IMG/VR virus record: IMGVR_UViG_3300014031_000001
Span: 54,653 to 118,652 of that record
Length of the DNA stretch: 64,000 nt
From: a virus
Lineage: Duplodnaviria; Caudoviricetes
Strand: one strand, 5' to 3'
Position numbers and translations under genes: made by a program. The notes under the pieces are model-generated. The model was not told where the DNA came from. It was given only the letters and a program-made list of their open reading frames with translations, and did not search any database. Below, piece by piece: positions 13,723-48,023 of the stretch (position 1 is the stretch's first letter; each line of letters opens with the position of its first letter).

Positions 13723-13730
13723 GGTATAAG
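13723..13730 (+). promoter_or_regulatory. GGTATAAG motif
   Basis: Directly after a terminator, about 38 nt upstream of the DNA polymerase ATG. Confidence 0.7.
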
Positions 13731-13767
13731 TAATTCGGTATGCACTACACACCGGAGGACGCAGCCC

Positions 13768-15627
13768 ATGAGCTGGAACTATATCACCACGCAAGGTGAA
13801 GTTGAGGCACTTCTGCCCCGACTCATGGAGAAGCCGTCCTGGGGGTTTGACACCGAAACGACCGGCCTTGATTCACACGTCGACAAGGTGCTGACGATTC
13901 AGCTCGGGCGCCCCGAAGAGCAGTTCATCATCGACGCGCGTAAGGTCGATGTCTCGCCGCTACGCCCCTTCTTCGAGTCATCGATCAAGAAGATCGCCCA
14001 CAATGGCAAGTTCGACTACAAGATGATGAAGGGCAGCTTCGGCATCGACGTCGAGAGCATCCGCTGCACCTATCTTGGCGAGAAGGCTCTGCACGTCGGG
14101 CGCCGCTTTGCCGGCTTTGATCTCGGCAGCATCATCCAAAACCGCCTCGGCATCACCGTCGACAAGGCCCTGCAAAAGTCCTTCATCGGCCACAAGGGCG
14201 AGTTCTCAAGAGAGCAGCTCGCGTACGCCGCGGCCGACGTCTCCCATCTTCTGCCGCTTTCCTTGAGCCAGTGCACCGAGATGATCGCCGACGGCATCGG
14301 CCCCACCTGGGTGCTCGAGTGCGAGGCCTTGCCGTGCTTTGGCGACATGGAGTTCGCCGGCGTCCTTCTAGACCAAGACCACTGGAAGGAGCTTATCGCC
14401 AGCAACGAAGCCGAGGCCGCGCGCCTGCGCCAAGAGATGGACGAGTACGCGCGTCACTTTTTCCCCGTCAATCTTTTCGGAGACGTCGAGATCAACTACG
14501 ACTCGCCGCCGCAGATCCTTTCGCTCCTACAGCGCATGGGGGTGCAGGTAAACGAGATGGATTTCAAAACGGGAAAGGGGTTTCAAAAGCTCGTCTACAA
14601 GACCGACGACAAGACGCTTAAAAAGGTAAAGGACACGCCTTTCATCAAGCTTCTGAAGGCCTATCGTGGATACCAAATTCGTATCAACACTTTTGGCTAC
14701 CCCTTCCTCAAAGCGGTCCACCCGGTAACGGGGCGCATCCACCCGTCGATTCGCCAGTACGGCACCGAGACCGGACGGCCCGCCGCCGCCAAGGACAAGG
14801 GCTCGGTCAACATGCTGAACATCCCGCGTGAAAACGCTTTCCGGAAAGGGTTTATTGCCCCTGACGACTACGTTGTCGAGACCGACGACTACAGCGGTTG
14901 CGAGCTGCGCATCCTCGCCGAACGCTCGCGCGACCCCGGCCTGATCGAGGCCTTCGCCAACGGCATCGACGTACACTGCTACGTCGCCAGCCGGCTCTTT
15001 GGCGTGGAAGTGACTAAAACAAATGAGAATAAAGGGCTGCGCACGCCGACCAAGCCGCTCAACTTCGGCATCGCCTACGGCATGGGCATCAGCTCCCTCT
15101 ACGAAAGAATCAACGCCGAGGGCTACCCCATCACGCTCGACGACACGGCGAAGCTCTACCGCCGCTACTGCGACGTCGAGTTCAAGGTGGCCGTCAACCA
15201 CCTGCGCGACACTGGCAAACTGGCCGTCGAGCAGGGCTACCTGGCCAACGCCAACGGGCGGCGGCGCTACTGGATGCCGCCTAACGCGCGCGATCGCGAC
15301 AAGTACCCCAACGGGGAGCGCGACCCGCGCTACCGCGGTGCCGTCGGCAAGCTCGAGCGCGAAGGCGGCAACTTCGACATCCAGTCGGTCAACGCCGACA
15401 TGACAAAGGCGGCGATGGCGTCGATCCGCGCCTACAAGAAAAAGCACAAGGTCCGCACCGAATTCGCCAACCAGGTCTACGACGAAATCGTGACCATGAC
15501 CCACAAGGGCGACACAGAGGCCTTCCACCCCATAAAGCAAAAACTGATGATCGAAGCCGCTGCGCGCTGGCTCAAGGTCGTGCCGATGGAGGTCGACGGG
15601 CACGTCGGCCCCGCCTGGCAAAAATAA
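13768..15627 (+). CDS. polA: Family A DNA polymerase (3'-5' exonuclease + polymerase, no 5' nuclease)
   Basis: Exo I DTETTG, Exo II HNGKFD, Exo III YAAADV; motif A DYSGCELRILA, motif B RTPTKPLNFGIAYG, motif C QVYDEI. ATG 13768 with RBS ggagg. Confidence 0.93.
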   Translation: MSWNYITTQGEVEALLPRLMEKPSWGFDTETTGLDSHVDKVLTIQLGRPEEQFIIDARKVDVSPLRPFFESSIKKIAHNGKFDYKMMKGSFGIDVESIRCTYLGEKALHVGRRFAGFDLGSIIQNRLGITVDKALQKSFIGHKGEFSREQLAYAAADVSHLLPLSLSQCTEMIADGIGPTWVLECEALPCFGDMEFAGVLLDQDHWKELIASNEAEAARLRQEMDEYARHFFPVNLFGDVEINYDSPPQILSLLQRMGVQVNEMDFKTGKGFQKLVYKTDDKTLKKVKDTPFIKLLKAYRGYQIRINTFGYPFLKAVHPVTGRIHPSIRQYGTETGRPAAAKDKGSVNMLNIPRENAFRKGFIAPDDYVVETDDYSGCELRILAERSRDPGLIEAFANGIDVHCYVASRLFGVEVTKTNENKGLRTPTKPLNFGIAYGMGISSLYERINAEGYPITLDDTAKLYRRYCDVEFKVAVNHLRDTGKLAVEQGYLANANGRRRYWMPPNARDRDKYPNGERDPRYRGAVGKLEREGGNFDIQSVNADMTKAAMASIRAYKKKHKVRTEFANQVYDEIVTMTHKGDTEAFHPIKQKLMIEAAARWLKVVPMEVDGHVGPAWQK

Positions 15628-24700: not shown

Positions 24701-24732
24701 ATGACCATGCTGTTCACATTAGAGTCAGTCAA
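21703..24732 (-). CDS. terL: Terminase large subunit with intein
   Basis: Spliced Walker A 'LKTARQVEK|TT', 'RARGISARVLALDEFQD' Walker B, 'AGTP' coupling motif, 'GVDWG' nuclease, 'PDDFFHS'. Confidence 0.9.
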   Translation of the reverse strand: MTDSNVNSMVITDHLDPDELAELEGRDADDYTDEKDLQLPSALHAARINELFNDDGTVRKLIRARKSAFVHNLIHLDGKKFDFTGRRYLEPIYDRSDQRILLKTARQVEKCLVASSQCTLSDGSEKPIDQMTVGDTVIAIDAAGHQAVDTVVASEDNGPRRCVRLRTRLGSTLEVTLNHPLRRFDGWVEAGRLVPGDRVAALRTVGTFGTARLSWAALLGLLVGDGHYYRHKAGGSSFGFTQKGDEVNAWADRLLELAGDRPSRTWIDERSGTKRYAFSLKGPLAVWFRDRGIANTCAREKHLPAEVFGWDKETTRDLLRGLWATDGHCKNVSSSKVDLVYCTTSPVLARQVRLLLRKFGVVTVQRENKLSNGGRLAYNIRVITRRAVACFHRELGPIPGKPFTLSTCRANSNLDTLPKEIHEFILQARKDRGTYWQRNGFQSAGLRVNRSYCPTYEKVAAMNVELESGALAAILESDVIWDEIVTIEDLGMQPTWGIQTETETFVADFILNHNTTFLANNLVAISAVKPFNKCLYVSPSHTQTRQFSSEKLKPAIEKSPLIMKYLQDSGVSNQVFEKGFTNGAFIFLRSAFRSADRARGISARVLALDEFQDMLISEIPVIRECTSHFPDAIEIMAGTPKSLDNPIEIYWQSSTQNEWLVPCGCGHWNMLDETTIGPTQWYESGRLPPGPVCSKCVRPLDVTKGQWMSLSGGKAIAGYRIPQLMVPWIISTMSQWSRLLWKRDHYPFGQFANEVLGLSYDAASKPISRAALMGICGDYALWDPNNLTPYLADARSRVLIGGVDWGEGNDGSEKSPSGKIRNASYTVLTLGYYETQRKFRTVLVKKYVGREVDPEHVVNDICRISAGLGVRVLGVDYGHGWGLNNVLVRKLGPKRVMQFQYLHKLKNRIKWDALGTRYHLHRNLFMSELFYDMKNGHVGFPKWAEFEPYAKDILSIYTEYNEFRREIKFDHRPSDPDDFFHSLLFCKLAADIFHGKSRRYTQIEGGPMY
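23191..24402 (-). mobile_element. Intein (404 aa) with LAGLIDADG endonuclease in the terminase P-loop
   Basis: Starts CLVASSQC, TLNHP block B, LLGLLVGDG and LLRGLWATDG, ends ILNHN, +1 Thr. Confidence 0.92.
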
Positions 24733-26190: not shown

Positions 26191-26502
26191 TCACACGTGC
26201 GCCTTGCGGAAGAGCTGCTCCAGCAAGGTCTTGTTGCTTCCAACGAGGCGATCCACTTCACGTCCGTCTTTCAAAAGAAGGACCGTGGGCAGCGAAAACA
26301 CACTGTGCCGCGAGGGCTTCGCCGGGTCTTTTTCGAGGTTGATGACTTTTACTTTAACAGACGGGTACTTAAAAGACAGCTGTTTCACGCCGTCGCGCAT
26401 CCGCGTGCCGGCGTCGTCGGACGTCCAGTAGCAGATGATGACGTGCTTTTTAAAGGAGACGGGGGCGGCACTTTTGGCGAAGCCGTGCCAGAAGGGCTTC
26501 AA
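26191..26502 (-). CDS. Thioredoxin-fold protein lacking CxxC, with FWxGFxKxA leader
   Basis: TTG start overlapping the upstream TGA. MKPFWHGFAKSA; 'VKVINLEKDP...SVFSLPTVLLLKDGREVDRLVG'. Confidence 0.7.
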   Translation of the reverse strand: MKPFWHGFAKSAAPVSFKKHVIICYWTSDDAGTRMRDGVKQLSFKYPSVKVKVINLEKDPAKPSRHSVFSLPTVLLLKDGREVDRLVGSNKTLLEQLFRKAHV

Positions 26503-27014
26503 CCTAGGGGCTTCTTTCCCCGACGAGCCCTCCAAAAATCAATCCCGTCACTCTTCTGTTCGGCAGAAGGTTTGATCCGCGCGCCACTGTTTTCGAGGTG
26601 GGCATACATAGCCGTGGCCACGCCCTTTCTGCGAGCTGGTGCGCCCACGTCTACAGCGTGTGCTTCGAAAGCATGCGCACTGGGCTTGTAATGGAAGCCC
26701 GCCCGCCCGATCTCCGCCCCGTCGCGCGCTCTAGCCCGAATAACCCGTCCGCCGACGCCGGCCAACTCTTCACGTACGAAGAAATGTCCCGGGGCGCCTT
26801 TGAACGCGCGCCTTCCGTTGATTCGGTCGTTTAGGCTGAGCGCCGTAGACGAGTCTGGAAGCTTGGCTTTCAGGGAGACCTCTTTCACCATCTTATCGAA
26901 GAGGCCGGCTTTGACGTAGTCAGGGTCTGTCTTGCGCAGGAAGCGCTTCAGCGCGTTTGAGGCCAGCTTCTGCAGCTCGCCGCGCCTTTCAAACCCGGCC
27001 CAAAAGCTAGTCAC
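26499..27014 (-). CDS. GNAT-family acetyltransferase with FWxGF leader
   Basis: MTSFWAGFERRGELQKLA; acetyl-CoA motif A 'VDVGAPARRKGVATAMY'. Confidence 0.7.
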   Translation of the reverse strand: MTSFWAGFERRGELQKLASNALKRFLRKTDPDYVKAGLFDKMVKEVSLKAKLPDSSTALSLNDRINGRRAFKGAPGHFFVREELAGVGGRVIRARARDGAEIGRAGFHYKPSAHAFEAHAVDVGAPARRKGVATAMYAHLENSGARIKPSAEQKSDGIDFWRARRGKKPLG

Positions 27015-34054: not shown

Positions 34055-34312
34055 ATGAGTCGGAAGTTATTTGTGGCGAAGCTCCCCTACGACATGACGG
34101 AAGCGGAGCTGCGCACGACGTTCGAGTCGTTCGGCACCTTGAAGTCGGTGCGCGTCATCATGGACCGCGACACCAAGACCTCCAAGGGCTTCGGCTTCGT
34201 CGAGTTCGAAAGCGACATCGATGCCGCGCGCGCCATTACGGCGCTCGACGGCGCGCAGGCGGGCAGCATGAAGCTCGTTGTGAAGCCTGCCGAAGAGCGC
34301 GGCGCCCGCTAG
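34055..34312 (+). CDS. RRM-domain RNA-binding protein
   Basis: RNP2 'LFVAKL' and RNP1 'KGFGFVEF'. Confidence 0.93.
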   Translation: MSRKLFVAKLPYDMTEAELRTTFESFGTLKSVRVIMDRDTKTSKGFGFVEFESDIDAARAITALDGAQAGSMKLVVKPAEERGAR

Positions 34313-35403: not shown

Positions 35404-38400
35404 TCAATATTTTCCGTCCTTGCCCTGTCCGAAGGTGGCTCCGTGTGCGAAGGCAGGGATCGGGTGCGTTCCGGCAAGGTCAGTTTTCCAGCCTTGTGCC
35501 GCGCCCTCGGTGATCGCCTTCGACAGGTTCTGGAAGCCCAAAGCCGCCATCCAGTTTTGCCGCATGAGCGGCACCGAGCCCATGCCCTTCATCAAGGGGG
35601 CATGCTTCAGCGGCTCGCGCCGGACCGAGATCTCTGCGTGTCCGTGCGATTTTAGAACTTTTGCGTCGCGCGCGTCCACCACGTGGCCCTTCTTCAAGTC
35701 CTCATAGTCGGCGTCGAGCTCGTAGCCGATGGCGTCTTCCGGCTTGGCCGTGAAGCCGAGGTTGGCGTTGTAGTGGTTGGCGACCGTGTAGCCGATGACG
35801 TCGCCCGGCAGGTGCGGGCTGTCCTTGGGGCTGTTGAGCACCTGGGTGAAGTTGCCGAGGCTGCGGACGACCGTCTCGAACATCTTGCGCTCGATGCGGA
35901 TGCCCTGGTCCTTGTAGGTCTTGTGGAGCTCGTCGACCAGGTACTCCTGGGCCGGGCGCATGCCCTTGAGCTTCACGAGGTCTTGGGGCTTCACGGCGCC
36001 GTCGGAAAGGACGTCGCCCTTGGTCACCTCGTCGCCGACCTTGACGGTGAGCTTGCGGCCGACGGGTACGTAGATTTTGTGGCTGCCGACGAAGACGTTG
36101 TGGCCGCCGCCGATGCCCTTATCGATGCGCTCCACCTTGCCGCCGACGGGCGTCAGGGGGGCGGCCCCTGGCAGGTCACCCGGCATCTTCAGAAGCTGGC
36201 CGATGCGCGCGTAGCCGCCAACGTCGGTGCCGGTGCCCGCAGCGCCCCCCGTGTGGAAGGTGCGCATGATCATCTGGACGAGCGGCTCCGAGATGGTCTG
36301 GCTCGCCTTGGCGCCAATGTTATCCCCGATGGCAGGCGCACCCCCGTGCTCATCGTGTCCAAAGCACTTGGCGCAAGTTCCTCGGGGCTGAAGGCATGTG
36401 AGAGGGGAGCGAACCTCGATTTTAGAAACGCCCCTCTTTTGAAGCGCACTGACCAGCTGCTGGTCGACAGGGGTATTACGCGCGACGCCGTCTTGATCGT
36501 GGGCCAGGTAGCGCCCCACTGCATCAGGACTGGAAATGCCGAGGGTAATACCCGCTTTAACGCCACAGTCCACCGCCGTGATGACGTTGTCTAGCGTGGT
36601 GGCCGAAATCGATTTCGAGAAGGCCCCGGGCTCACTTGTTTGGATGGCTCTGTCCATCATACCACGGCGCGCACCGTACATACTTGTCCAGTAGTCGCCG
36701 ATATTTAGCCCTTCTGAATAGGACTTTTTGATGGCGCGCGGGACGATCTTGCCGCGTGCGTCGGAGACGAAAAGCGGGGTCGCCATGATCTGGCGCAGCT
36801 GGGTCGGCTCGCCGCGGCCGCCGCCTTCGACCATGTCGAAAAGCGAGTTGCCCGTGCCGCGAAGCTTCGTCGCGAGCATGCGGTCCAAAAGCCCGACGGC
36901 GTCCTTGTTGATCTTGGTGAGGTCGGCCTCGGTCTTGGCCTTGGCGAGCTCCTTGTCGACGTGCGTCGTGATGAGGTCGCGGCTTTTGCTAAAGTCGTGC
37001 AAGTCGTCGAGCCCGAGCGAAAAGCCCTTCTCGTAGGAGTGCGTCTCGCCGGCGCTCTTGAGGGCCTGGAGGACTTTGGCGAAGTCGCCTGACGGCAGCT
37101 CTTTGGCCATACGGTTAAGCATGGCAGCCGTACCTTTTTTGTCGAGGACGGCGGTGACCTTGTACTTTTCGCCGACGATAGCGTCGAGCTTGGCGCGCCC
37201 TGCGGGGGTCTGCGACAGGTAGAAGATCCCCGTCTGCGCTTCCCAGGCGGGCGCCATCATCAGAGCGCCGCTGCCAGGCTGGAAGAGGTTGCGCGACGGC
37301 AGCATGCCCTCGGCTTCCTTGTTGGCCTCGTTGCTGATCGGCACGTGCACCGTCATGGTGTTATGCGTCAACAGTCCGTTCTGGATGCAGAAGATCTCGC
37401 CATCCGGCACGGTGAAGTCGAACATTACCTCGTGCCGTGGAACTTCAGTGATCGACGTCACCTCCTCCCAGAGCAGATCTTCGTTCAGGACGAGCTGAGC
37501 CCACTTCTCGAAAAGTCCTGAAGCCAACATGCCGTACGTGTGGAGAATATCTTTAGCGATGTGTCTCGAGATGAAGTGCGTTTTTTTCTTGAAGTGGTCA
37601 TGTAGATTGACTCTGCGTCCAGGAACCGCCTCTCGCCAGGCTGCAATCTTCGCGCGCAGCTCCTTGTTCGGGACCCGGAGCTCCTTCCCGATTTCTGCTA
37701 TTTCGTCAAACAGCGCAGCGCTGAAAGGAACGATGTCGTAGAGATTTTTACGTCGGCGCCCCGCTTTGACTTCGCAGGCTGTCTTCAGAAGCTCGGATTT
37801 ACGCCCCTCTTTCAGGGCCAGTCTGTGCATATCGTCTTTGACAACGCGCACTATTGCGAAGTCGCGGCAGCCCTTGTGCTCGCTGTCGCGGATATAGGCG
37901 CCTATCCCGACGCTAGCCATGATGAAGCGAAGCGCCTCAAGAAAGGGGCGGTTCTTCATCTCAATGCGGGCGAGCCAGTTGCCGAGCGCATCCTTGCCGA
38001 TGCTGCCTTCTGCCTGAAAGAGGCCCTGCACATAGGCAAGCCGTACGCTGTCGGGGCTTGAGACGATGCAGTCGGGAACTCGCTTGTCCTCGCACCGTGC
38101 CCCGCACTCGTCTGCGAACCAGGCAGCGATCGTTTTGTTGTAGATGCGGGCAATACAGCCGGCATGCTTGGCCGTGCTCTGTCGTTTTGTGTCCGAGTTG
38201 AAGACTGCCTTGATTGTCCGACAGCTCCGGTCGAGGAGGGCGCGCTCGGTATCGCAGATAGTGACGGTGTTGTCTGCGCTACACCCATCGCCAGCATAGT
38301 GGCCCAGGAGCCAAGCGAAATCTTCATCTACGACGTGCGACTTTTCCCCGATTTTTACGCTCTGTATGTCCTGCCCGAGCCTCGGCCGTGCTTTTGGGAG

Positions 38401-41400
38401 CAAGACCCCCGCGGGCATAACTTCTGTTTTGACGCACTGAAGGTTGAACTTCTCGTCGATGTAGCTGAAGTTGTGGTGCTCGGTAGCGACGACGCGCGTG
38501 CCGGTGTGCGTCTCGAGCTGGTAGCACGGCCCGTGCGATGTATGCACGGTAAGTCTGCGCACGTCGGCCCAGATGGGGGTGCTGTTGACCATAGAGATCG
38601 TCTGCAGGCGGCCTGGCGAGAGTTCGTAAATAGCTGTGTAGCCCCCGGCGTCTGCCACCATGTCCTCCACGCTCTTGCCGACAAGGAGGGGGAATAGCTC
38701 CCCCGCGCGGAGACTTAGGTACACCCACTGTCCGTCGTCTGTCAACAGGCGAGTGTGGCACAACGTGCTGATATCGCAGCTGTCTCCATTGAAGTCAGCG
38801 TTGAAGCCTTTGATTACCAACGGCGGAATCTTCAGCGCACGCCCCGTCGTGATCTTCGGCTTGAACGCCATGATCGAAAACTTGTGGAGCGACGGCGCGC
38901 GGTTTAGAAGGACGTGGCGGTCTTTCATGACGCGGTCAAGCGCCGTGCGTGCGAGCTTCGTGCGCCCCTTCACCTCTTCGGTGGCGGCCAGCGGGCTTTT
39001 GCCGTGGCCCTTCAGCTCGCGGATGACGAACGGCTCGAAGAGCTTCCAGGCCATCTCTTCGGGCATCGCCATCTCGTCGATGCCAAGGTCAGGCTCGGGG
39101 ATGATCGTGCCGCGGCCGACAAGATCCTGCTTTTTGGAGAGCAGCTTCGAGATGAAGTAGCCCTCTTTCGGCTGCCCACCGTCGGCGCCGCCCTTGATGG
39201 CGGCGATGAAGCCGTCACGCGTGCGACCCTTGACGTTGAGGTTCGTGAGCCCCGAGACGGCCGACACGTGGTCGTAGAGCTCCTTGCGGATGTCGGCCTT
39301 CTCGGTCTCCGGCAAGAGCTTGGCGCCCGGCAGCTGGGCCACGTAGTTGACGACGCCCGTGTTGTGGTAGAGGACGTTGATGTCGCTCGTCGTGACGTTG
39401 CCGTCGGGCAGCGGGTAGAGCGGGCGAAACTGCGGCGGGATCACCGGCAGCTTCCTGCGGATGTAGGCGTCTTCCGGGCGCAGGTTGAGCCGCACCAGGT
39501 TCTTTAGGATCTTCAACTTCTTGTTGATGTCGTCGAGCTTGTCGGCGCGCACCGTCTTGGCTTTTTCCTCGAGACGCGTGATGGCGCCCGCGACGTCGAC
39601 GCCCTTCAGGATCGACTCGATCGCCTCGCCCGAGGTGAGGCCCACGCCCGTCTCGTTGAAGGTCTTGGTCTTGGGGTCCAAGAAGAGCTTGCCCGCCATG
39701 ATCTTGTCGTAGCGGCTGCCGAGGTCGGTGATCTTCTTGACGGCGTCTTCGAAGACGGGGTTCACGACGGCGTGCGCCAGGTCCAGGTGGGACCACTTGT
39801 CGCCCTGGAAGCCGCCGAGCTTTTGGTGATCGAAGAAGCCACCCTTGACCGGCACGAAGTCTTTGGCGCGGAAAAACTGCGGGTCCTTGATCGCCATGAC
39901 CGAGATCTTCTCGACGTGCTTATCAGTGAGCGGCCCGAGCGTCAGCTCCGTGCCGTTCTTCTCGACGTCGACGCCCGCAGCCTTCAGGTAGTTCAGAAAC
40001 TTGGTGTAGGCGAACGTCTGGCGCGGCGCCGGCACCGGGTCGCCGACCTTGAGGGCCCGCCAGAACTCCTCGTTCTGGTCGCTCTTGTAGGTGGCCATCT
40101 CGCGCAGGTTGTGGCGCGCGCCGTGGGCCAGCATGGCGTTCATCGTGAGCACGTCGAGGGCCTTGGCCCCCTCGGCGCCGCCGGCCTTCAGCGGCTGGTG
40201 GTTGCCGTCGTAGGGGTGGCCGCTGCCGCCCTGGCGCACCGAGTAGTTGTGGGTGCCCTGCTTGTAGAGCTTCAGGATGTAGGGGTTGCCGACGTGGACC
40301 TTGCCGAGGCTCTTGCCCGTCGCGGCGTCGAAGAGCTCCTCTTTGTCGAGAACCCCCGACTTCTTGAGCTTCTGGCGCGTCGTGTCGAGGTAGTTCTCGC
40401 CTGAGAAGTTGTCGACGACGTGGGGCTTGCCGTCCTTCAGCGCGGCCTTGCCGGCGGCCGACTCGTAGATCTGGCCGATGTTGATCCGGCTGATGACGCC
40501 GTGGGGGTTCAGCAACATATGGACGGGGTTGCCCGCCTTGTCCTTCGGCGCCTCGCTGTCGGGGATGATCTTGGTGATGATCCCCTTGTTGCCGTTGCGG
40601 CCCGCGATCTTGTCGCCGATGCGCGCGCGTTCTTCGGTCTTCACGTAGACCAGGATCTTGTCTTTGCGCTTTTGGACGTCCATGACGTAGCCGGTGTCTT
40701 CGTAGTGCCAGTAGACGGAGACGTCGCGGGGCCTTTCCGACAGGGCCTTGTTGATGACGGCGATGACCTGGCTTGGCGGGCGCTGCTTGAGCGCCGCGAC
40801 GAGGATCGTGCCCTGCGTGACCTTCGAGCCCTTCTTGATGACGCCGTCTTCGTCCAAAAGCTGGGCGTTCGCCGGGGTCAGCTGGCTCGGGTAGGTGGCG
40901 CGAAACTTCGCCAGGTTGAGCTGGATCGTGACGTCGCGGTCGATCGCTTCCTTGTGGACGTGCTCGCTTGTGAGCTGGTCGGCCCCCGAGTTGGTGATGA
41001 CGACGCCGTCTTCGAAGTTGAGGCCCTTGTAGGGCAGGTAGGCGACGCGCATGTTGGTGCCGAGCGCGAGCGTGCCGTTTTTGCTGAAGTTGCTATCGGC
41101 GAGCAGGTCGCCCTTGGCCACCTTGTCGCCGACTTTGACCTTCACCTCGTGGTTGAGAAAACTTTTCCGGTTGAGCGTGAAGTTGTTGTATAGGTTCACC
41201 TGCTTGTCGCCTGACGGTGTCGCCAGCACGAGAAAGTCGGGGGTCACCTTTTTTACCGTGCCGCTGTCGGGCGCCATCGCCGCGACCGAGCCGCCGATCA
41301 CCTCCTCCATCGAAGCCCCGGGGGTCGCGCCGACTTGGACGAGAGGCGCCTCGCGATGCTTCAGGCTGATCGCCTGCTCCATCTGCTTGGCGGCCATCAT

Positions 41401-42858
41401 CGCCCGGTTGCCCTGGTTGGAGGCGAGAAAGGGGATGAGGTTGGTCGACCACGAGAAGAGCGCCGACGGCGCCGGTGTGAAAAAATCCACGTCCTTGCGC
41501 TTCACCCGGATCGTCTCGCCGCGGTGCATGGCGTCGATGACGTCGCCCTTTTGCCCAGGCAGCGCGACCTTCTTGTCCCAGGCGGCCCGCGCCGTCAGGA
41601 AGTGGTCTTTGCCGTCTTGGTCCTTCACCGCCATCTTCAGGTCTTTGCCGTCCTTGCGGACACCGATCGGCAGGTGCAGGTTGGCACCTATCTTTTTGCT
41701 TTCGGGAGTATGGATCGGATCAAGAAGACCATAGTGCGTCGGATGAATCTGACGCATCTCCGGCGTAATCGCGTGCTCAGAGCCAATGCCGCCGGCGCCC
41801 ATGATGGTCGTAGCGTAGGCACCAGTAAGCATCTCAAGAGGGTTGGTCTGCTCTGGTGTTGCCGACTTGTCGTCTTGGGTGAAAAAACTCTCGACGGTGG
41901 AGCTAAAAGACCCAGGGTTAAGAATCTGCGAAATCTTCGTTCGCTTGGGGTTGTTGAGGCCCCGCTGGATCTTATAGCCGAGAGACCGAGTATTTTTTTC
42001 AAGGCGTTCCCCGATAAAATCTTCCACCGAGTGGATGTCCTTGAACATCAAGGAATCGCGGTCCACGGGCTCTTTTTTACCCATGTGGACGTCGTGAAGA
42101 TTTTTCGAGGCGGCAAGCAGCATCGGCCCGTCGACCTTGTCGAAGGCCTTGCCGAGCACAAGCTCGGTCGTCTCTTCGCCGAGCTTCGTCTGCGAGAGGT
42201 AGTCTTTCAGCTGGCTGCCGGGCTTGACGCCAAAAGCTGCCGCGGCCTTGGCGATAGCGCGCGGGTCGTTGCTGCGGTTGGCGGCCTCGATGTCGGTGCC
42301 CCAGGTACGCGCGATAAGCCCGGGGCTGACGCCCAGGTAGGTGAGCACCGGGTAGAGCGGCACCTTGCCGGTGCCGCCGGCGATGTTGGTCATGTAGAAG
42401 ATGCCGGACTCTTCAGCGAACGTCAGGTCGAAGTTCTTGCCCTTCGCCAGGTTCACCTGGGTCTTGAGCTGGCCGTTCTGACGGCGCAGCGTGTAGACGC
42501 CGGGCTTAAGCCGCAGCTGATTGTGGACCTGGTACTCGTTGCCCTTGACGATGTAGCTCATGCGCGCCGTCAGTTTCGGTAGCGTGAAAAGCCGCACCTT
42601 CGTCGCGCGGTCCAGCACCGTGCTCGTGGCGTTGTCTTTTAAAGTGACGCTCGCGTAGACGTTGACGCCCCAGGTGCCCTCGTCATTTTTCGTCTTCGCC
42701 TGGTCGACGTAGTCGTGCGCGCTCGACGTGTCCTCGATAGTGACGCCGTCAAGGCTCAGCGTGCGCGTGCGGCCGACAACAGGGAAGACGCGGCCAATGG
42801 CCAGCGTCGCGGCCTTCTTGATGTCTTCGAACTGCTGGTCGATTCCGAAATTTCGCAT
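35404..42858 (-). CDS. DNA-directed RNA polymerase, fused beta-beta' single polypeptide, with intein
   Basis: Beta motifs: HTPESKKIG, NRAMMAAKQMEQA, GDKIAGRNGNKG, LNPHGVISRINIGQ. Beta' motifs in the same ORF: LPVIPPQFRP, LLNRAPSLH, NADFNGD|TM, bridge helix ARRGMMDRAIQTSEPG, trigger loop EPLVQMIMRTFHTGG. Confidence 0.95.
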   Translation of the reverse strand: MRNFGIDQQFEDIKKAATLAIGRVFPVVGRTRTLSLDGVTIEDTSSAHDYVDQAKTKNDEGTWGVNVYASVTLKDNATSTVLDRATKVRLFTLPKLTARMSYIVKGNEYQVHNQLRLKPGVYTLRRQNGQLKTQVNLAKGKNFDLTFAEESGIFYMTNIAGGTGKVPLYPVLTYLGVSPGLIARTWGTDIEAANRSNDPRAIAKAAAAFGVKPGSQLKDYLSQTKLGEETTELVLGKAFDKVDGPMLLAASKNLHDVHMGKKEPVDRDSLMFKDIHSVEDFIGERLEKNTRSLGYKIQRGLNNPKRTKISQILNPGSFSSTVESFFTQDDKSATPEQTNPLEMLTGAYATTIMGAGGIGSEHAITPEMRQIHPTHYGLLDPIHTPESKKIGANLHLPIGVRKDGKDLKMAVKDQDGKDHFLTARAAWDKKVALPGQKGDVIDAMHRGETIRVKRKDVDFFTPAPSALFSWSTNLIPFLASNQGNRAMMAAKQMEQAISLKHREAPLVQVGATPGASMEEVIGGSVAAMAPDSGTVKKVTPDFLVLATPSGDKQVNLYNNFTLNRKSFLNHEVKVKVGDKVAKGDLLADSNFSKNGTLALGTNMRVAYLPYKGLNFEDGVVITNSGADQLTSEHVHKEAIDRDVTIQLNLAKFRATYPSQLTPANAQLLDEDGVIKKGSKVTQGTILVAALKQRPPSQVIAVINKALSERPRDVSVYWHYEDTGYVMDVQKRKDKILVYVKTEERARIGDKIAGRNGNKGIITKIIPDSEAPKDKAGNPVHMLLNPHGVISRINIGQIYESAAGKAALKDGKPHVVDNFSGENYLDTTRQKLKKSGVLDKEELFDAATGKSLGKVHVGNPYILKLYKQGTHNYSVRQGGSGHPYDGNHQPLKAGGAEGAKALDVLTMNAMLAHGARHNLREMATYKSDQNEEFWRALKVGDPVPAPRQTFAYTKFLNYLKAAGVDVEKNGTELTLGPLTDKHVEKISVMAIKDPQFFRAKDFVPVKGGFFDHQKLGGFQGDKWSHLDLAHAVVNPVFEDAVKKITDLGSRYDKIMAGKLFLDPKTKTFNETGVGLTSGEAIESILKGVDVAGAITRLEEKAKTVRADKLDDINKKLKILKNLVRLNLRPEDAYIRRKLPVIPPQFRPLYPLPDGNVTTSDINVLYHNTGVVNYVAQLPGAKLLPETEKADIRKELYDHVSAVSGLTNLNVKGRTRDGFIAAIKGGADGGQPKEGYFISKLLSKKQDLVGRGTIIPEPDLGIDEMAMPEEMAWKLFEPFVIRELKGHGKSPLAATEEVKGRTKLARTALDRVMKDRHVLLNRAPSLHKFSIMAFKPKITTGRALKIPPLVIKGFNADFNGDSCDISTLCHTRLLTDDGQWVYLSLRAGELFPLLVGKSVEDMVADAGGYTAIYELSPGRLQTISMVNSTPIWADVRRLTVHTSHGPCYQLETHTGTRVVATEHHNFSYIDEKFNLQCVKTEVMPAGVLLPKARPRLGQDIQSVKIGEKSHVVDEDFAWLLGHYAGDGCSADNTVTICDTERALLDRSCRTIKAVFNSDTKRQSTAKHAGCIARIYNKTIAAWFADECGARCEDKRVPDCIVSSPDSVRLAYVQGLFQAEGSIGKDALGNWLARIEMKNRPFLEALRFIMASVGIGAYIRDSEHKGCRDFAIVRVVKDDMHRLALKEGRKSELLKTACEVKAGRRRKNLYDIVPFSAALFDEIAEIGKELRVPNKELRAKIAAWREAVPGRRVNLHDHFKKKTHFISRHIAKDILHTYGMLASGLFEKWAQLVLNEDLLWEEVTSITEVPRHEVMFDFTVPDGEIFCIQNGLLTHNTMTVHVPISNEANKEAEGMLPSRNLFQPGSGALMMAPAWEAQTGIFYLSQTPAGRAKLDAIVGEKYKVTAVLDKKGTAAMLNRMAKELPSGDFAKVLQALKSAGETHSYEKGFSLGLDDLHDFSKSRDLITTHVDKELAKAKTEADLTKINKDAVGLLDRMLATKLRGTGNSLFDMVEGGGRGEPTQLRQIMATPLFVSDARGKIVPRAIKKSYSEGLNIGDYWTSMYGARRGMMDRAIQTSEPGAFSKSISATTLDNVITAVDCGVKAGITLGISSPDAVGRYLAHDQDGVARNTPVDQQLVSALQKRGVSKIEVRSPLTCLQPRGTCAKCFGHDEHGGAPAIGDNIGAKASQTISEPLVQMIMRTFHTGGAAGTGTDVGGYARIGQLLKMPGDLPGAAPLTPVGGKVERIDKGIGGGHNVFVGSHKIYVPVGRKLTVKVGDEVTKGDVLSDGAVKPQDLVKLKGMRPAQEYLVDELHKTYKDQGIRIERKMFETVVRSLGNFTQVLNSPKDSPHLPGDVIGYTVANHYNANLGFTAKPEDAIGYELDADYEDLKKGHVVDARDAKVLKSHGHAEISVRREPLKHAPLMKGMGSVPLMRQNWMAALGFQNLSKAITEGAAQGWKTDLAGTHPIPAFAHGATFGQGKDGKY
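37360..38781 (-). mobile_element. Intein (474 aa) with LAGLIDADG endonuclease inserted directly after the RNAP catalytic motif
   Basis: Starts SCDISTLC (Ser1), TEHHNF block B, LLGHYAGDG and VQGLFQAEG, ends LLTHN, +1 Thr. Removal restores NADFNGD-TMTVHVP. Confidence 0.92.
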
Positions 42859-42864: not shown

Positions 42865-42872
42865 GGTATAAG
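42865..42872 (+). promoter_or_regulatory. GGTATAAG motif abutting the divergent RNAP start codon
   Basis: About 40 nt upstream of small ORF 42914. Confidence 0.65.
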
Positions 42873-42913: not shown

Positions 42914-43069
42914 GTGATCGAACTAGAGGAAATCGCTTTGAAAATCATACTAACGCCTAACGACATTGTAGCACAACGAAAACCAGGGCTTGAGCAGGGA
43001 GGCGACGATCGTGGAGCAGCAAAACCAGGTGCCACCAAGCCGCGCGCAAAGTGCCGTCCAAGTCCGTAA
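42914..43069 (+). CDS. Small hypothetical protein (51 aa)
   Basis: GTG with strong RBS gaggagg; below the ORF-track length cutoff. Confidence 0.4.
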   Translation: MIELEEIALKIILTPNDIVAQRKPGLEQGGDDRGAAKPGATKPRAKCRPSP

Positions 43070-43693: not shown

Positions 43694-43714
43694 GCGGGGC
43701 ATCGTCTTTTTTTT
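43672..43714. terminator. Bidirectional intrinsic terminator
   Basis: aaagacgatgccccgc-atgtag-gcggggcatcgtcttt followed by a T tract. Confidence 0.8.
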
Positions 43715-43910
43715 AGCGCCCCATGGCCCGGCTAATAGACGCACTGATATTGCCGCCGAGGCTGCCGGTGTCGGCCGGCGCGGGCGGCGGCGGTGGGGGC
43801 GGAGCAGCCTTTGAGCCGCCACCGAAGGCGCCTGAGATGGCACTCGCTGCGGCCTGCTGGCCGCTGTCCCAGGCCCGCTTTTCAAAGCCTCTCCAAAACG
43901 GCGTCGTCAT
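43713..43910 (-). CDS. Small protein with FWxGFxKxA leader
   Basis: MTTPFWRGFEKRA; poly-Pro linker; ATGA overlap with the upstream gene. Confidence 0.7.
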   Translation of the reverse strand: MTTPFWRGFEKRAWDSGQQAAASAISGAFGGGSKAAPPPPPPPAPADTGSLGGNISASISRAMGR

Positions 43911-44266: not shown

Positions 44267-44454
44267 GTCACCACCAAGTAGATGAATTCCGTGGAGCCGA
44301 CGATCTGGCCTTCGTTGTAGTCGCGTTCGACTTTCTTTATCTGGCGCTCGGTGATGATCGTGCACAGCGGGTTGTTCAAGATCGCCTGGTAGTCGGCCAG
44401 GTTATTGTCGTCCAGCAGGTCGAAGCGCCCCACGTGGCGGCGGCTCTTGTACAT
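44242..44454 (-). CDS. Hypothetical small protein
   Basis: 70 aa, coupled to the portal stop codon. Confidence 0.6.
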   Translation of the reverse strand: MYKSRRHVGRFDLLDDNNLADYQAILNNPLCTIITERQIKKVERDYNEGQIVGSTEFIYLVVTWEERTLL

Positions 44455-47400
44455 CAGCTGGCCCCGGTCATGGGCCGCGCGCCGACCATCTCCATGCGCT
44501 GGGCGCCGACGCGCCCCTGCGGCATGGCGTCCATGTTGGGGGCCGTACTGACGCCGCCGCTGCCCCCCATCTCGGCCATCTTCATCTTATAGAGCCGCTC
44601 GAGCTGCTGGCCGACGTCGGGCATCTTCACCTTGATGTCGGTGATCGTGAGGTTGGCCTGGCCAGGGTCCATCTTGATCAGCTGGCTCGTCCAGCGCTCA
44701 AGCCGCTGCTGGACCATGTCGGGCTGGGGCGGGCCCTTGCCGCCCGCCGCGGGGGCGCCAGGGGCGGGCGGGCCGCCGGCGCCGCCCTGGGCGGCCTGCT
44801 GGACGTTGCCAGGCATCCCGCCCGGGTCCTGGCCTTGGCCGCCACCGGGGGCGCCGGCGTCAGGGGTCGCGCCTGGGAGGGGCTGGCCGTCAGGGCCGAC
44901 CTGGCCCTGCTGGAACATCTCGGGGGTCGCCTCGCCCTTGGCGATCATCTGCTGCATCTTCTTTTGGGCGGAGATCTGCGCCTTCTGCGCGAGCTCCTGG
45001 ACTTTCGACTGGTAGTTGAACTGCACGAGCGAGGCCTCGCCCTGGGCCTTGGCGGCGCCCTTCGTCTGCAGGTCGGAGATGTAGTTTTGGATGAAGAGCT
45101 CTTCGATCTTTTTCTTGGTCTCCTGCTCGTAGTCGAAGCCAAGCTCCGTGAGCATCGTGTGGTCCGAGAGCTTGCCGGAGGCGTTGAGGCCGACGACCTG
45201 CTGGTTCCTCTGGACGTCGTCGGCCATCCGGAAGTCGGCAAAGCGCACGCGCTTCACGTCAGGGATGTCGAGCCACACGCGGATCTTTTCTTTGATCCAA
45301 AAGACCAGGTCTAGAAGCTGGCTGCGGTTTTGGATGAAGTCGTTTTCCAAGGTACGCAGCGAGATCGAGGACCCCGTGTTGTGCGAGATGATCCCGTTGG
45401 CAACGTAGCTGTGGGTGTTGAAGACCGTGAGGTCGCACATCTCGACTTCTTCGTCAGAGAAGGTGACCTCCTCGATCTGATCCCACCAGTGGTCGGCCTT
45501 CTTGGCCTCCGCGACCCGGTCGTAAAGTACAGGGTCTAGGGCCTTGACGCCCTCCCAGTTCACAAGCTCGTAGTTGTTGTCTGTCAGCTCCCAGGTCGTC
45601 TGACCGAGGGCAGCGCGCTTTTGCGTGCCGTAGTTTTCTAGGAAGGCTTCCAGCGCGGGCTTCGTGATGAGCCAGCTCGGGTAGCGCCCGTCGTTTCGAG
45701 CTTCCTTCTCGGCGACGAGCTTGCCCTTACGGATGTAGAGGATGACGCTAGAGACGTCTCGGTCCAGGATGTCGGCGACTTCCGCAGTCGTGTAGAGGTC
45801 TTTTTGCAGGTCGTGCTGGCGATGCTCTTTGATCCATGCGCCGAAGCCGTTTTGCAGCTTGCGTAGGGCCTTCAGGTTGTCCATGACGTAGGGGATCTTG
45901 TTGGCTTCGCAGCGAAAGCCTTGACGATCCGCGACTTCACGGTAAAGCCGGTTTTTACGCTCTGTGGTAAAGCCGATCTCCTTCATGAAGAGGCTGACGT
46001 ACTCGGAGCGAATTTGCAGCGAGTGGGTGTTGTTGTTCAGGCCGCTGAAGCTTTCAGCGCACTCGCCGGTGTAGGGCGGGTAGCGCGTCGACAAGATGCC
46101 GAAGTTCATCAAGAGGAGCTGGACTTCCTCGATCAGCCGCTCGGACACCGAGTTGTAGTGGATCGTCTGTTTTTTATCGCGGTCGACGATGCACCCGTCA
46201 CCGCTAAAAAGCGCGCTGAGGAACGCGGCGACGGACGCCTTGGTGCCTTCGCGGATGAGGCGCGGCACGCGCTTGGTATGGGAGTAGTGCTGCATGTCGA
46301 GCGTCTTGAGCTCAGCCGTGACGGCGGAGTCGCGGCACTGGACCTGCGCGTAGGGGTGGTTGCCGCCGCTCTCCGAGAAGTCGCGCCACTGCAGCGCGGG
46401 CCGCTTGCCGAAAGTCCCCTCAAAGCAGTCGAGGTAGTCCTCAAGAATTGCCTTGTCGGTGTTACCGAAGTCGGTACATTTTTCAGTGACCGAGCCCTCT
46501 GCCACGAGGTAGCCGAGCAGTCGGCACAGATTCGGGTTTACAGCCCGGTCGCCCCAGAGGCCAGTCTGCTTTTTGAGCGCGACGTACTCGCCCGGCTTGA
46601 AGTTCTGCAGCGCCTTCCAGCCCATTTCAACTTCGCCGTCGATGGTCCAAACTTTGTGGACCGGTGAGCCGGTCAGCGTCAGACCCGAGCGCATCTTGAT
46701 CTTGACCTGCTTGCGCTTCGCGGTGTGGTGCGTCAGCGCAACACGCTCCACGCCATCCTTCGTCAAGACAGAAAAATCAGCCTCCGCGATTCCGGGCTCT
46801 TCCGGGCAGAGTTCCTCGAGGCGAAGAAGGCCCTTCGATGTCATGCAAAGCGTTGATTTTATTGAGCAAAAGTTCAAACCGCCGAAAAGAAATTCTTGTG
46901 GAATTCCCATTCCCCCAACAATCGTTTGCGTCAGGTAGTTGAGCTCGGGGGACAGCAGCAGCGCCTTGCCGTCACCGCCGATGCGGCCAAAGCCCACCGG
47001 AATCGGGATGACCGCCTTGAAGTTGGGGTCGGCCCGGTGGCGCGTGATGATGTCTTCGATCTTGACCTTCCAGTCGGCCAGGTCGGTGTGGATGTAGGGG
47101 TCCTGCTGCGCGTTCGGCATCGGGTAGATGATGTCGAAGGGGACGATGTGCTCAAGTGCGATCGCCTCCTGGGCGCGGCGCAGCGTGTAGAAGTAGAACA
47201 TGTCTTTTAGCACGTGGATGATCGTCGGCTTGCCCCAGCCCTGGTCTTGCTCGGCCAAGGTCGGGTTCTTCAGGTGCTTGATCGCGCGGTCGTCGAGGCG
47301 AATGAGTCGGCGCTTTTTGAGCGCATCCAGGACGACCAGCGGGATGTCTTCCAGCACGTCCTTGTCGCCGCGCTGGATCATCGAGCGCAGCTTACCAGGC

Positions 47401-48023
47401 ACCGAGTACATGTAAATGTAGCGGCCCGTGTAGTCATTGAACTTGATGTGGATGTTCTCGGGGTTCCAGCGAATCAAGCGGATCGACTTGCGGTCTTTGT
47501 AGGGCACGTCTTTGACGTCGACGGCGCCGCGCTTATTGCACTCGGCGCAGACGCCCGTGAAATGGTAGTCGCCGCCGTTGAAGCTCCAGTCCCACTGACG
47601 AATAGGCTGGCGGTACTTGCAGCCCTGGCAGATCAGAAAGCGCGTGAACGGCAGGTGGATCGAGACGAAGGCGTTGCCGTAGACGTGGTAGTCGAGGTTC
47701 ACCTCCATCAAGCGGTCTTTGAGCTTGAGCTCGTCGACCAAGATGGTGCGCCAGACGTCGCGCACGCTGTCGAGCTCGTCTTCGAAGATGAGGTCGGTGA
47801 TCGGGTAGCGACTGATCTTCTTGATCGAGCTGCCAATGAGTGGGCTGTTGTAGAAGTAGAACGTGCACCAGCGGAAGAGCTCTTTGATCGTCGGCGGCAT
47901 GTACTGCTGCGACAAATCGAAGAACTGGTTGGGATAGCGCGTCCCGCGGCCGCCGCCCCCAATCGAGATGTTGGGGTTGACGCTGCGTGTCTGCGACGAG
48001 CCGCTGATGTCAAGGTTGGTCAT
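44454..48023 (-). CDS. Portal protein with intein, Zn-ribbon insertion and Gln/Gly/Pro-rich tail
   Basis: 'EVNLDYHVYGNAFV', 'IRWNPENI', 'HLK...GWGKPTI', 'GMGIPQEFLFGG' are portal-like. CQGC...CAEC insertion. Confidence 0.75.
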   Translation of the reverse strand: MTNLDISGSSQTRSVNPNISIGGGGRGTRYPNQFFDLSQQYMPPTIKELFRWCTFYFYNSPLIGSSIKKISRYPITDLIFEDELDSVRDVWRTILVDELKLKDRLMEVNLDYHVYGNAFVSIHLPFTRFLICQGCKYRQPIRQWDWSFNGGDYHFTGVCAECNKRGAVDVKDVPYKDRKSIRLIRWNPENIHIKFNDYTGRYIYMYSVPGKLRSMIQRGDKDVLEDIPLVVLDALKKRRLIRLDDRAIKHLKNPTLAEQDQGWGKPTIIHVLKDMFYFYTLRRAQEAIALEHIVPFDIIYPMPNAQQDPYIHTDLADWKVKIEDIITRHRADPNFKAVIPIPVGFGRIGGDGKALLLSPELNYLTQTIVGGMGIPQEFLFGGLNFCSIKSTLCMTSKGLLRLEELCPEEPGIAEADFSVLTKDGVERVALTHHTAKRKQVKIKMRSGLTLTGSPVHKVWTIDGEVEMGWKALQNFKPGEYVALKKQTGLWGDRAVNPNLCRLLGYLVAEGSVTEKCTDFGNTDKAILEDYLDCFEGTFGKRPALQWRDFSESGGNHPYAQVQCRDSAVTAELKTLDMQHYSHTKRVPRLIREGTKASVAAFLSALFSGDGCIVDRDKKQTIHYNSVSERLIEEVQLLLMNFGILSTRYPPYTGECAESFSGLNNNTHSLQIRSEYVSLFMKEIGFTTERKNRLYREVADRQGFRCEANKIPYVMDNLKALRKLQNGFGAWIKEHRQHDLQKDLYTTAEVADILDRDVSSVILYIRKGKLVAEKEARNDGRYPSWLITKPALEAFLENYGTQKRAALGQTTWELTDNNYELVNWEGVKALDPVLYDRVAEAKKADHWWDQIEEVTFSDEEVEMCDLTVFNTHSYVANGIISHNTGSSISLRTLENDFIQNRSQLLDLVFWIKEKIRVWLDIPDVKRVRFADFRMADDVQRNQQVVGLNASGKLSDHTMLTELGFDYEQETKKKIEELFIQNYISDLQTKGAAKAQGEASLVQFNYQSKVQELAQKAQISAQKKMQQMIAKGEATPEMFQQGQVGPDGQPLPGATPDAGAPGGGQGQDPGGMPGNVQQAAQGGAGGPPAPGAPAAGGKGPPQPDMVQQRLERWTSQLIKMDPGQANLTITDIKVKMPDVGQQLERLYKMKMAEMGGSGGVSTAPNMDAMPQGRVGAQRMEMVGARPMTGAS
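45378..46868 (-). mobile_element. Intein (497 aa) with LAGLIDADG endonuclease and an extra HTH domain
   Basis: Starts CSIKSTLC, SPVHKV block B, LLGYLVAEG and LSALFSGDG, ends IISHN, +1 Thr. Confidence 0.9.

What the first reader, a model, noticed from the sequence alone, without database searches (positions are those of the whole stretch)
35404..42858. Single-chain fused beta-beta' RNA polymerase among virion genes
Seen: one ORF holds bacterial-type beta then beta' motifs, about 2010 aa after splicing, much shorter than cellular beta plus beta'. There is no N-terminal beta' Zn-finger and no alpha or sigma gene in the window. It lies downstream of the portal, between leader-bearing genes, and its N-terminus reads FEDIKKAA. 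Known: phiKZ-like phages split these subunits into several genes, and crAss-like phages package a highly divergent single-chain enzyme. Inference: a minimal, possibly alpha- and sigma-independent RNAP, likely packaged in the virion.
Basis: partly seen in the sequence, partly recalled or inferred. Interest (0 to 1): 0.75.

Follow-up and report, generated by a model that had tools for sequence, protein, structure and literature searches.

The report
Single-chain phage RNA polymerase with intein
A roughly 163-kb uncultured phage encodes its only RNA polymerase as one fused bacterial-type beta-beta' chain, interrupted by an intein at the catalytic loop; relatives carry this enzyme in the virion, but the phage also encodes a sigma-like factor just outside the window, so it is probably not sigma-independent.

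Summary
Observation confirmed. ORF 35404-42858 (-) encodes 2484 aa: a beta module, a beta' module, and a 474-aa Ser1/LAGLIDADG intein right after the catalytic loop. Splicing would leave 2010 aa (about 219 kDa). The beta' N-terminal Zn ribbon is absent. No alpha or sigma gene lies in the window, and the portal gene lies upstream.

The fusion is not an artefact. The identical protein is on 6 contigs, and hundreds of fused homologues of about 2007 aa exist on phage contigs up to 210 kb.

Interpretation partly supported.
- Packaging is plausible: in Salmonella phage Arash the orthologues were the most-detected proteins in virion mass spectrometry.
- No alpha homologue was found in this contig or in the four relatives searched.
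- Sigma-independence is not supported. A longer contig, 100% identical to the window, encodes a 242-aa sigma70-family protein about 15 kb beyond the window end. It is an orthologue of Arash gp10, which is also found in virions.

A conserved, strand-specific GGTATAAG element heads the opposite-strand replication genes in this phage, three uncultured relatives and Arash. It is the likely promoter.

Unexplained: the Mg-binding triad reads NADFNGD, and only with this intein lineage.

The scan noted a similar fused enzyme in another genome (e1-5359060). Verdict: new variant of a known kind.

The parts
35404..42858 (-). Whole RNAP precursor ORF: 2484 aa, about 272 kDa; stop codon at 35404-35406
   Evidence: the identical protein is on 6 contigs from at least 4 assemblies
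39949..42858 (-). Beta module, residues 1 to about 970. It carries the fork domain, the GLNFEDG motif (612-618) and the GDKIAGRNGNKG motif (748-759). The rifampicin pocket is substituted.
   Evidence: Pfam Rpb2_3 and Rpb2_6; match to T. thermophilus beta 87-1100; invariant columns in alignment A1; motifs read
38782..39948 (-). Beta' N-terminal module (N-extein end), residues about 971-1359. It holds clamp helices, switch 2 and the catalytic loop NADFNGD (1353-1359). It has no Cys, so no Zn ribbon.
   Evidence: The AlphaFold model of residues 880-1359 has pLDDT 89.5 and pTM 0.87. It superposes on bacterial beta' N-termini at query-normalised TM 0.70 and rmsd 3.0-3.7 A.
38788..38790 (-). AAT codon for Asn1357, which replaces the middle Asp of the Mg-binding triad
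   Evidence: Asn occurs in 8 of 8 distinct members with this intein lineage and in 0 of 146 other entries.
37360..38781 (-). Class-1 intein with a LAGLIDADG homing endonuclease, S1360-N1833 (474 aa). It has Ser1, a block-B TEHH motif, the C-terminal ...THN, and Thr as the +1 residue.
   Evidence: Pfam PF14890 and PF14528; boundaries fixed against intein-less homologues; sequence read
35407..37359 (-). C-extein, the beta' C-terminal module, T1834-Y2484. It holds the bridge helix, the second Zn site (C2098/2155/2162/2165) and the trigger loop MRTFHTGG without an SI3 insertion.
44454..48023 (-). Portal gene (1189 aa) upstream of the RNAP, itself carrying a LAGLIDADG intein
   Evidence: The Arash portal gp204 matches on both sides of a gap of about 1.5 kb. 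PHROG portal hit plus intein domains.
42865..42872 (+). GGTATAAG promoter-like element, 7 nt beyond the RNAP start codon and pointing away from it towards the + strand ORFs. Other exact + strand copies start at 10502, 13433, 13723, 16775, 31093, 34518 and 58432.
   Evidence: The same strand-biased enrichment is seen in relatives.

Best explanation
The ORF is the only RNA polymerase gene found in this contig, which comes from a virulent tailed phage of about 163 kb; each of the five fuller relatives searched also has a single copy. It encodes bacterial-type beta and beta' joined in one chain.

The chain is made as a 272-kDa precursor. A Ser1 / His-Asn / Thr+1 intein sits directly after the Mg-binding loop, so the enzyme cannot be active until protein splicing yields the 2010-aa, roughly 219-kDa core (inferred from the anatomy).

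The covalent beta-beta' link probably replaces the alpha-dimer assembly platform. No alpha homologue was found in this contig or in the four relatives searched.

Promoter recognition is most likely supplied by a phage-encoded 242-aa sigma70-family protein, whose gene lies about 15 kb beyond the window.

By analogy with Salmonella phage Arash, where the orthologous core and sigma are abundant in purified particles, the core and sigma are packaged in the head and injected with the DNA. There they would transcribe the opposite-strand replication genes (DNA polymerase, SSB, HU and others), each headed by a conserved -10-like GGTATAAG element.

Shown here: the gene anatomy, the fusion, the intein boundaries, the family, the sigma gene and the motif.
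Inferred: splicing, packaging in this particular phage, the pairing of sigma with the core, and recognition of the motif.
For: Anatomy.

The fusion is real and ancient.
- The identical protein is on 6 contigs.
- 758 homologues passed E<=1e-5; most of those listed are about 2007 aa and fused.
- 72 IMG/VR loci lie on contigs up to 210 kb.
- In the beta tree the family forms its own clade (SH-aLRT 99), separate from the sampled bacteria (99). Arash and Vibrio D69 are nested inside it.

Single RNAP copy per genome. No alpha homologue.

Sigma.
- L129:3663-4391 lies on a contig 100% identical to the window.
- It scores E 1e-105 against a profile built from 85 sigma-like proteins that share contigs with the RNAP.
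- The same profile hits Arash gp10 at E 9e-51.
- Foldseek on its model returns only sigma70-family chains, probability 1.0.

Packaging. In Arash virion mass spectrometry gp206 gave 3516 spectra (the top protein), gp216 gave 1210 and sigma gp10 gave 467 (PMC10585845). RNAP subunits and a sigma factor are also particle-associated in phage YerA41 (PMC7354516).

Promoter.
- GGTATAAG occurs 13 times in the 118-kb contig, 12 of them on the + strand upstream of genes.
- Forward/reverse counts in relatives are 0/10, 0/14, 1/10 and 1/30 (Arash), against 0-4 for the control pattern. The copies are always on the strand opposite the RNAP gene.

The junction model folds like a canonical beta' N-terminus.
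Against: - There is no proteomic, transcriptomic or biochemical data for this phage.
- The Arash 'virion' proteome lists 116 proteins, including ribonucleotide reductases and a primase. Its authors themselves allow for carry-over of abundant infection proteins.
- The catalytic triad reads D-N-D, which in E. coli would be expected to cripple Mg binding.
- The sigma-core interaction and recognition of GGTATAAG are untested.
- The beta' Zn ribbon, part of the normal clamp region, is missing.
- Vibrio phage D69 does not show the octamer enrichment.
- No motif was found for the strand that carries the RNAP and structural genes, so who transcribes the late genes is open.
Confidence: 0.68

Rival explanations
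1. One reading: a minimal RNAP that needs neither alpha nor sigma and recognises promoters by itself.
For: - No sigma or alpha homologue was found in the window or in the 118-kb contig.
- The beta' Zn ribbon is deleted.
- Phage multisubunit RNAPs of the phiKZ type lack alpha, omega and recognisable sigma (PMC7598289).
Against: - The same phage, on a longer contig 100% identical to the window, encodes a sigma70-family protein.
- Orthologues of that protein were found in the four fuller genomes checked for it (G001-G003 and Arash) and lie on the same contigs as the RNAP.
- The Arash orthologue is found in virions.
- The candidate promoter is a -10-like element of the kind that sigma region 2 reads.
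Confidence: 0.1
2. The NADFNGD enzyme is catalytically dead or nearly so. It serves as a structural or ejection protein, and the host RNAP transcribes the phage.
For: The middle Asp of the universally conserved triad is Asn. The triad binds the catalytic Mg ion (bioRxiv 10.1101/2024.06.20.599782).
Against: - Every other catalytic element is intact and invariant: the beta GDK..GNKG and NFEDG motifs, the bridge helix, the trigger loop and the second Zn site.
- The protein shows no decay over 2484 codons.
- Asn is confined to one intein lineage inside clades that otherwise have Asp.
- These phages carry only this one RNAP, plus a cognate sigma and a conserved phage-specific promoter motif.
Confidence: 0.1
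3. The enzyme is made only after infection, like the non-virion RNAPs of other phages, and is not packaged. Early genes are read by the host RNAP.
For: - There are no particle data for this phage.
- The Arash particle proteome contains many non-structural enzymes.
- A host-type extended -10 (TGCTACAAT, 42965-42973, - strand) lies about 110 nt upstream of the RNAP start (by eye).
Against: - Arash gp206 was the most-detected protein in the particles, above the major capsid protein.
- The gene sits next to the portal in Arash, Vibrio D69 and this phage.
- The sigma orthologue lies among structural and lysis-type genes in both phages.
- The rifampicin pocket is substituted at the main resistance positions.
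Confidence: 0.2
4. The fusion or the intein-bearing ORF is an assembly or frameshift artefact.
For: None found.
Against: - The identical 2484-aa product is on 6 contigs from ENA and JGI assemblies.
- Hundreds of fused homologues exist with and without inteins.
- The third-codon-position GC bias of coding sequence runs through the whole ORF.
Confidence: 0.01

Closest known systems
Salmonella phage Arash RNAP (gp206 + gp216, with sigma gp10); Vibrio phages D69, D148 and D181
   Same: - Orthologous: 33% and 27% identity, and nested inside the same clade in the beta tree.
- Beta is fused to the N-terminal, catalytic half of beta'.
- The gene follows the portal.
- Each genome has a single RNAP copy.
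- The sigma orthologue and the GGTATAAG motif are present in Arash.
- Detected in virions by mass spectrometry.
   Different: - In Arash and D69 the beta' part is split about 85 aa after the DYDGD loop into a second gene several kb away. Here the whole enzyme is one chain.
- Arash has no intein and an intact Asp triad.
- Arash also has a second sigma (gp196) that was not found in this phage's clade.
- The Arash paper calls gp206 simply 'subunit beta'.
YerA41 / Cobetia phage Carin-5 type phage RNAPs (sigma gene plus two large subunit genes)
   Same: - Compact bacterial-type subunits of 1083 and 927 aa, together about 2010 aa.
- A gene annotated as sigma factor lies next to the subunit genes in Carin-5, though Pfam did not confirm it.
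- RNAP subunits and a sigma factor are particle-associated in YerA41.
- Possible sister group in the beta tree (SH-aLRT 90, on a long branch).
   Different: - Two separate genes, with the beta-like gene second.
- Only about 25% identity.
- Not next to the portal.
phiKZ / AR9 virion and non-virion multisubunit RNAPs
   Same: - Phage-encoded two-barrel enzymes without alpha or omega.
- One set is packaged and injected (PMC7598289).
   Different: - There, beta and beta' are split into 4-5 polypeptides and each phage has two sets.
- They have no sigma70 homologue; the gp68/gp226-type factor is used instead.
- They are much more divergent from the bacterial enzymes.
- Here there is one fused chain, one copy and a sigma70-family partner.
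Natural rpoB-rpoC fusions of Helicobacter and Wolbachia (my own knowledge, not tested here)
   Same: Beta then beta' in one polypeptide, joined at the adjacent C- and N-termini.
   Different: Those are full-size cellular enzymes that still use alpha, omega and host sigmas. The phage family forms its own clade outside the sampled bacteria and is about 16% shorter than the smallest cellular pair seen.
crAss-like gp66, YonO and P23-45 tape-measure RNAPs (single-chain two-barrel enzymes)
   Same: A single polypeptide carries both barrels. The crAss-like and P23-45 enzymes are packaged in the virion (abstracts).
   Different: Those are so divergent that Pfam beta and beta' domains are not detected. 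This protein scores E 1e-51 to 1e-91 against bacterial beta and beta'.

Membership tests
Bacterial-type multisubunit RNAP catalytic core (beta/beta') | Beta domains with the catalytic Lys motif and the ED motif | tested here: met
   Rpb2_3 and Rpb2_6 score above Pfam cut-offs. GDKIAGRNGNKG and GLNFEDG are present and invariant in alignment A1.
Bacterial-type multisubunit RNAP catalytic core (beta/beta') | Beta' NADFDGD triad of three Asp residues | tested here: not met
   The loop reads NADFNGD: the first and third Asp are kept and the middle one is Asn. Intein-less relatives have the full triad.
Bacterial-type multisubunit RNAP catalytic core (beta/beta') | Bridge helix, trigger loop and second Zn site | tested here: met
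Bacterial-type multisubunit RNAP catalytic core (beta/beta') | Alpha dimer and omega partners | tested here: not met
   PF01193 finds nothing in this contig, three complete relatives or Arash, while all 14 control genomes match. Omega was not searched.
Bacterial-type multisubunit RNAP catalytic core (beta/beta') | Beta' N-terminal Zn ribbon | tested here: not met
   There is no Cys between residues 960 and 1110. The only Cys outside the intein are the four of the second Zn site.
Arash-like virion-associated phage RNAP | Orthology to gp206 and gp216, and position next to the portal | tested here: met
Arash-like virion-associated phage RNAP | A gp10-type sigma partner in the same genome | tested here: met
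   L129:3663-4391 on a contig identical to the window. The gene is outside the window.
Arash-like virion-associated phage RNAP | Presence in purified particles | not testable with these tools
   Known only for Arash.
phiKZ/AR9-type phage RNAPs | Subunits split into 4-5 genes, two sets per genome, no sigma70 homologue | tested here: not met
   One fused gene, one copy, and a sigma70-family partner.
Class-1 intein with LAGLIDADG homing endonuclease | Ser/Cys at position 1, block-B TxxH, C-terminal His-Asn, +1 Ser/Thr/Cys, two LAGLIDADG motifs, and intein-less alleles that define the site | tested here: met
   S1360, TEHH...THN|T1834, LLGHYAGDG and GLFQAEGS. Pfam PF14890 and PF14528. 116 intein-less entries read NADFDGD|T. 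Splicing itself was not tested.

The most novel reading that the evidence does not exclude
The Asp-to-Asn change in the catalytic triad is functionally tied to the intein. The enzyme would be made doubly latent: unspliced, and with an incomplete metal site. It would become fully active only after splicing and conversion of the Asn-Gly pair to Asp-Gly, by deamidation, which would act as a built-in timer for a packaged polymerase. Alternatively, a bacterial-type RNAP works naturally with a D-N-D metal site.
Probability: 0.1. Interest if true: 0.85.

Novelty: new variant of a known kind. Interest (0 to 1): 0.6.

Why it matters
This would be the simplest bacterial-type transcription machine known: one roughly 219-kDa chain plus one small sigma, with no alpha or omega homologue found and a short conserved promoter. 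It belongs to a large, environmentally widespread phage group that has cultured members (Arash, Vibrio phages).

It makes several questions directly testable in a two-protein system:
- how a bacterial-type core assembles without alpha;
- how sigma docks on a core that lacks the beta' Zn ribbon;
- how such a large enzyme is packaged and injected.

It could also serve as an orthogonal expression system. The intein at the active-site loop, with its linked Asp-to-Asn change, is a natural case of interplay between an intein and its host protein at a residue otherwise held to be invariant.

Tried and rejected
- I first read the Arash split as lying at the intein site. Alignment to an intein-less homologue showed it lies 50-100 aa further on, so I rejected that reading.
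- FEDIKKAA as a capsid-targeting leader: it does not fit the FWxGFxKxA pattern, and the N-terminus is conserved across the family.
- Sigma search inside the 118-kb contig with Pfam r2, r3 and r4, the Arash proteins and two HMMs: empty. The gene turned out to lie beyond the contig end.
- A longer, intein-bearing form of the sigma: none found.
- Searching the 162,857-bp contig directly: the record is not held. I reached the region by two contig look-ups instead.
- Family members in 185,579 species genomes: only one short MAG contig, probably mis-binned, so no prophage and no host clue.
- A second promoter motif for the RNAP/structural strand: none found by 7-mer enrichment.
- Literature searches for NADFNGD, and for an intein at NADFDGD: no papers in the library.
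- L107, from an unpublished genome (G023), was left out of the tree.
Full report
**What is there**

The window is the last 64 kb of a 118,652-bp IMG/VR phage contig that CheckV rates 81% complete. ORF 35404-42858 on the - strand is open for 2484 codons and keeps the strong third-codon-position GC bias of the other genes.

Pfam finds beta domains (Rpb2_3, Rpb2_6), then beta' domains (Rpb1_1, Rpb1_2), then an intein with a LAGLIDADG endonuclease, then Rpb1_5. Against solved structures:
- residues 60-966 match bacterial beta (E 1.6e-74);
- residues 1053-1360 and 1853-2358 match bacterial beta'.

Intein-less homologues read NADFDGD|TMTVHVP. The intein is therefore S1360-N1833, with Ser1, a block-B TEHH motif, C-terminal His-Asn and Thr at +1. 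The mature protein has 2010 aa and about 219 kDa. The smallest cellular pair among the structure hits is B. subtilis, 1193 + 1199 aa, so this enzyme is about 16% shorter.

The four Cys outside the intein are exactly the second beta' Zn site, so the N-terminal Zn ribbon is gone. The beta Lys and ED motifs, bridge helix and trigger loop are present and invariant across the family. An AlphaFold model of residues 880-1359, which spans the beta/beta' junction, is confident (pLDDT 89.5, pTM 0.87). It superposes on bacterial beta' N-termini at query-normalised TM 0.70.

In the alignment the rifampicin pocket is changed at the E. coli positions 513, 514, 516, 526, 529 and 531. The numbering is from my own knowledge. 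I therefore predict rifampicin insensitivity.

**Is the fusion real, and how common is it**

The identical protein lies on 6 contigs from ENA and JGI assemblies. A search of 5.8 billion proteins gave 758 homologues. Most of those listed are about 2007 aa and fused. Others, of 2360-3220 aa, carry one or more inteins.

IMG/VR holds 72 loci on contigs up to 210 kb, several rated complete. Only one short MAG contig turned up among 185,579 species genomes, so this is a family of virulent phages.

In a maximum-likelihood tree of the beta region:
- the family forms its own clade (SH-aLRT 99);
- the sampled bacteria form another (99). Sampling was thin: Pseudomonadota, Actinomycetota and one Staphylococcus;
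- Arash and Vibrio D69 are nested inside the family;
- the two-gene YerA41/Carin-5 enzymes are a possible sister group (90, on a long branch).

Each of the five fuller genomes searched has a single RNAP copy, and none of the genomes searched has an alpha homologue.

**Packaging**

No data exist for this phage. The gene follows the portal (44454-48023, which itself carries an intein) with a few small ORFs between them. The same portal-then-RNAP order is seen in Arash and D69.

In Arash particles gp206 was the most-detected protein (3516 spectra) and gp216 gave 1210 (PMC10585845). gp206 is beta plus the first half of beta'; gp216 is the rest of beta'. That proteome lists 116 proteins, including metabolic enzymes, so carry-over is possible, as its authors say. 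YerA41 particles also contain RNAP subunits and a sigma factor (PMC7354516). I rate packaging in this phage at about 0.65.

**Sigma**

Nothing sigma-like is in the 118-kb contig. Complete relatives, however, have an ORF with a Sigma70_r3 match. That ORF defines a family of 243-aa proteins, 50-89% identical to the query. Members lie on the same contigs as the RNAP; for example, contigs of 186,294 and 184,872 bp appear in both lists. A profile built from this family hits Arash gp10 at E 9e-51. gp10 had 24 unique peptides and 100% coverage in Arash particles.

Gene order in relative G001 placed the gene beyond the end of our contig. Two contig look-ups then reached it on ENA contig k119_169337 (162,857 bp), which is 100% identical to the window over 38.7 kb. 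L129:3663-4391 encodes 242 aa and scores E 1e-105 against the profile. Its model (pLDDT 81) finds only sigma70-family chains in the PDB at probability 1.0. Sigma-independence is therefore not supported.

**Promoter**

I confirm 8 exact copies in the window, all on the + strand. The whole contig has 13 copies, 12 of them on the + strand upstream of genes.

The + strand carries DNA polymerase, SSB, an HU-like protein and an RRM protein. Copies of the octamer precede several of them, including DNA polymerase and SSB.

The same octamer is strand-biased in relatives. Forward/reverse counts are:
- G001: 0/10;
- G002: 0/14;
- G003: 1/10;
- Arash: 1/30.

The control pattern gave 0-4 copies per strand. 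The enriched copies always lie on the strand opposite the RNAP gene. The RNAPs of these phages are only 33-61% identical, and their GC content ranges from 44% to 65%. This conservation argues that the phage's own polymerase and sigma read the element, not a host sigma. That step is an inference.

**The odd catalytic loop**

Asn1357 (codon AAT) replaces the middle Asp of the triad. Among 158 entries examined:
- Asn occurs in all 8 distinct proteins that carry one intein lineage, 39-71% identical to ours;
- it occurs in none of 146 other entries, including 30 with other inteins at the same site.

The two groups with Asn sit next to intein-less Asp sisters in the tree. The change therefore travels with the intein, or reverts when the intein is lost. 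The codon is AAT in every case, while neighbouring codons differ and even the Ser1 codon family differs.

Possible explanations are co-conversion during homing, a splicing requirement of this intein lineage, Asn-Gly deamidation after splicing, or a tolerated D-N-D site. None is tested.

**Verdict**

It is wrong about sigma.

The enzyme belongs with the Arash-type virion-associated RNAPs. Those were reported only as proteomic hits and were annotated as ordinary beta and beta'. I found no description of the full fusion, the intein at the active-site loop, the conserved sigma or the promoter octamer in the searches I ran.

The scan noted a similar enzyme in another genome (e1-5359060).

Noticed in passing
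window 44454-48023 (-) and 21703-24732 (-): The portal and the large terminase each carry a LAGLIDADG intein, so this phage has at least three inteins in essential late genes.
   Followed up: partly
relatives P0007-P0114, L014, L028, L034, L048, L058, L059, L074, L077: The NADFDGD|T site is an intein hot spot with at least four intein types. One type starts with Gln, Glu or Asn and ends in Ser-Asn (possibly class 3). Another ends in Asp instead of Asn.
   Followed up: partly
window 43713-43910 (-), 26191-26535 (-), about 8750-8937 (-); further copies upstream in the contig: About 12 small ORFs begin with an FWxGFxKxA motif, which earlier notes of the scan proposed as a capsid-targeting signal. 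The motif is real, but the RNAP does not carry it.
   Followed up: partly
window 34055-34312 (+): An 85-aa ORF with a Pfam RRM_1 hit (eukaryote-type RNA-recognition motif) lies just downstream of the RNAP on the opposite strand.
   Followed up: no
L127:4335-9356 (contig k119_169337, beyond the window): A 1673-aa protein with no Pfam hit, homologous to a 2138-aa protein of relative G001, lies between the sigma region and the window. It may be a large virion or ejection protein.
   Followed up: no
G010 contig C5 (48143-49627 and 69967-71292): A Hyphomicrobiales MAG holds two extra, very divergent beta-like ORFs on one contig. This is probably a phiKZ-like phage binned with the MAG.
   Followed up: no
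L002 (Arash) 9782-14359: Arash gp206, deposited as 'subunit beta', is beta fused to the catalytic N-terminal half of beta'. Arash also has one + strand GGTATAAG directly upstream of gp9 and the sigma gp10.
   Followed up: partly
window 42965-42973 (-): TGCTACAAT, a host-type extended -10 sequence, lies about 110 nt upstream of the RNAP start codon. It was seen by eye only.
   Followed up: no
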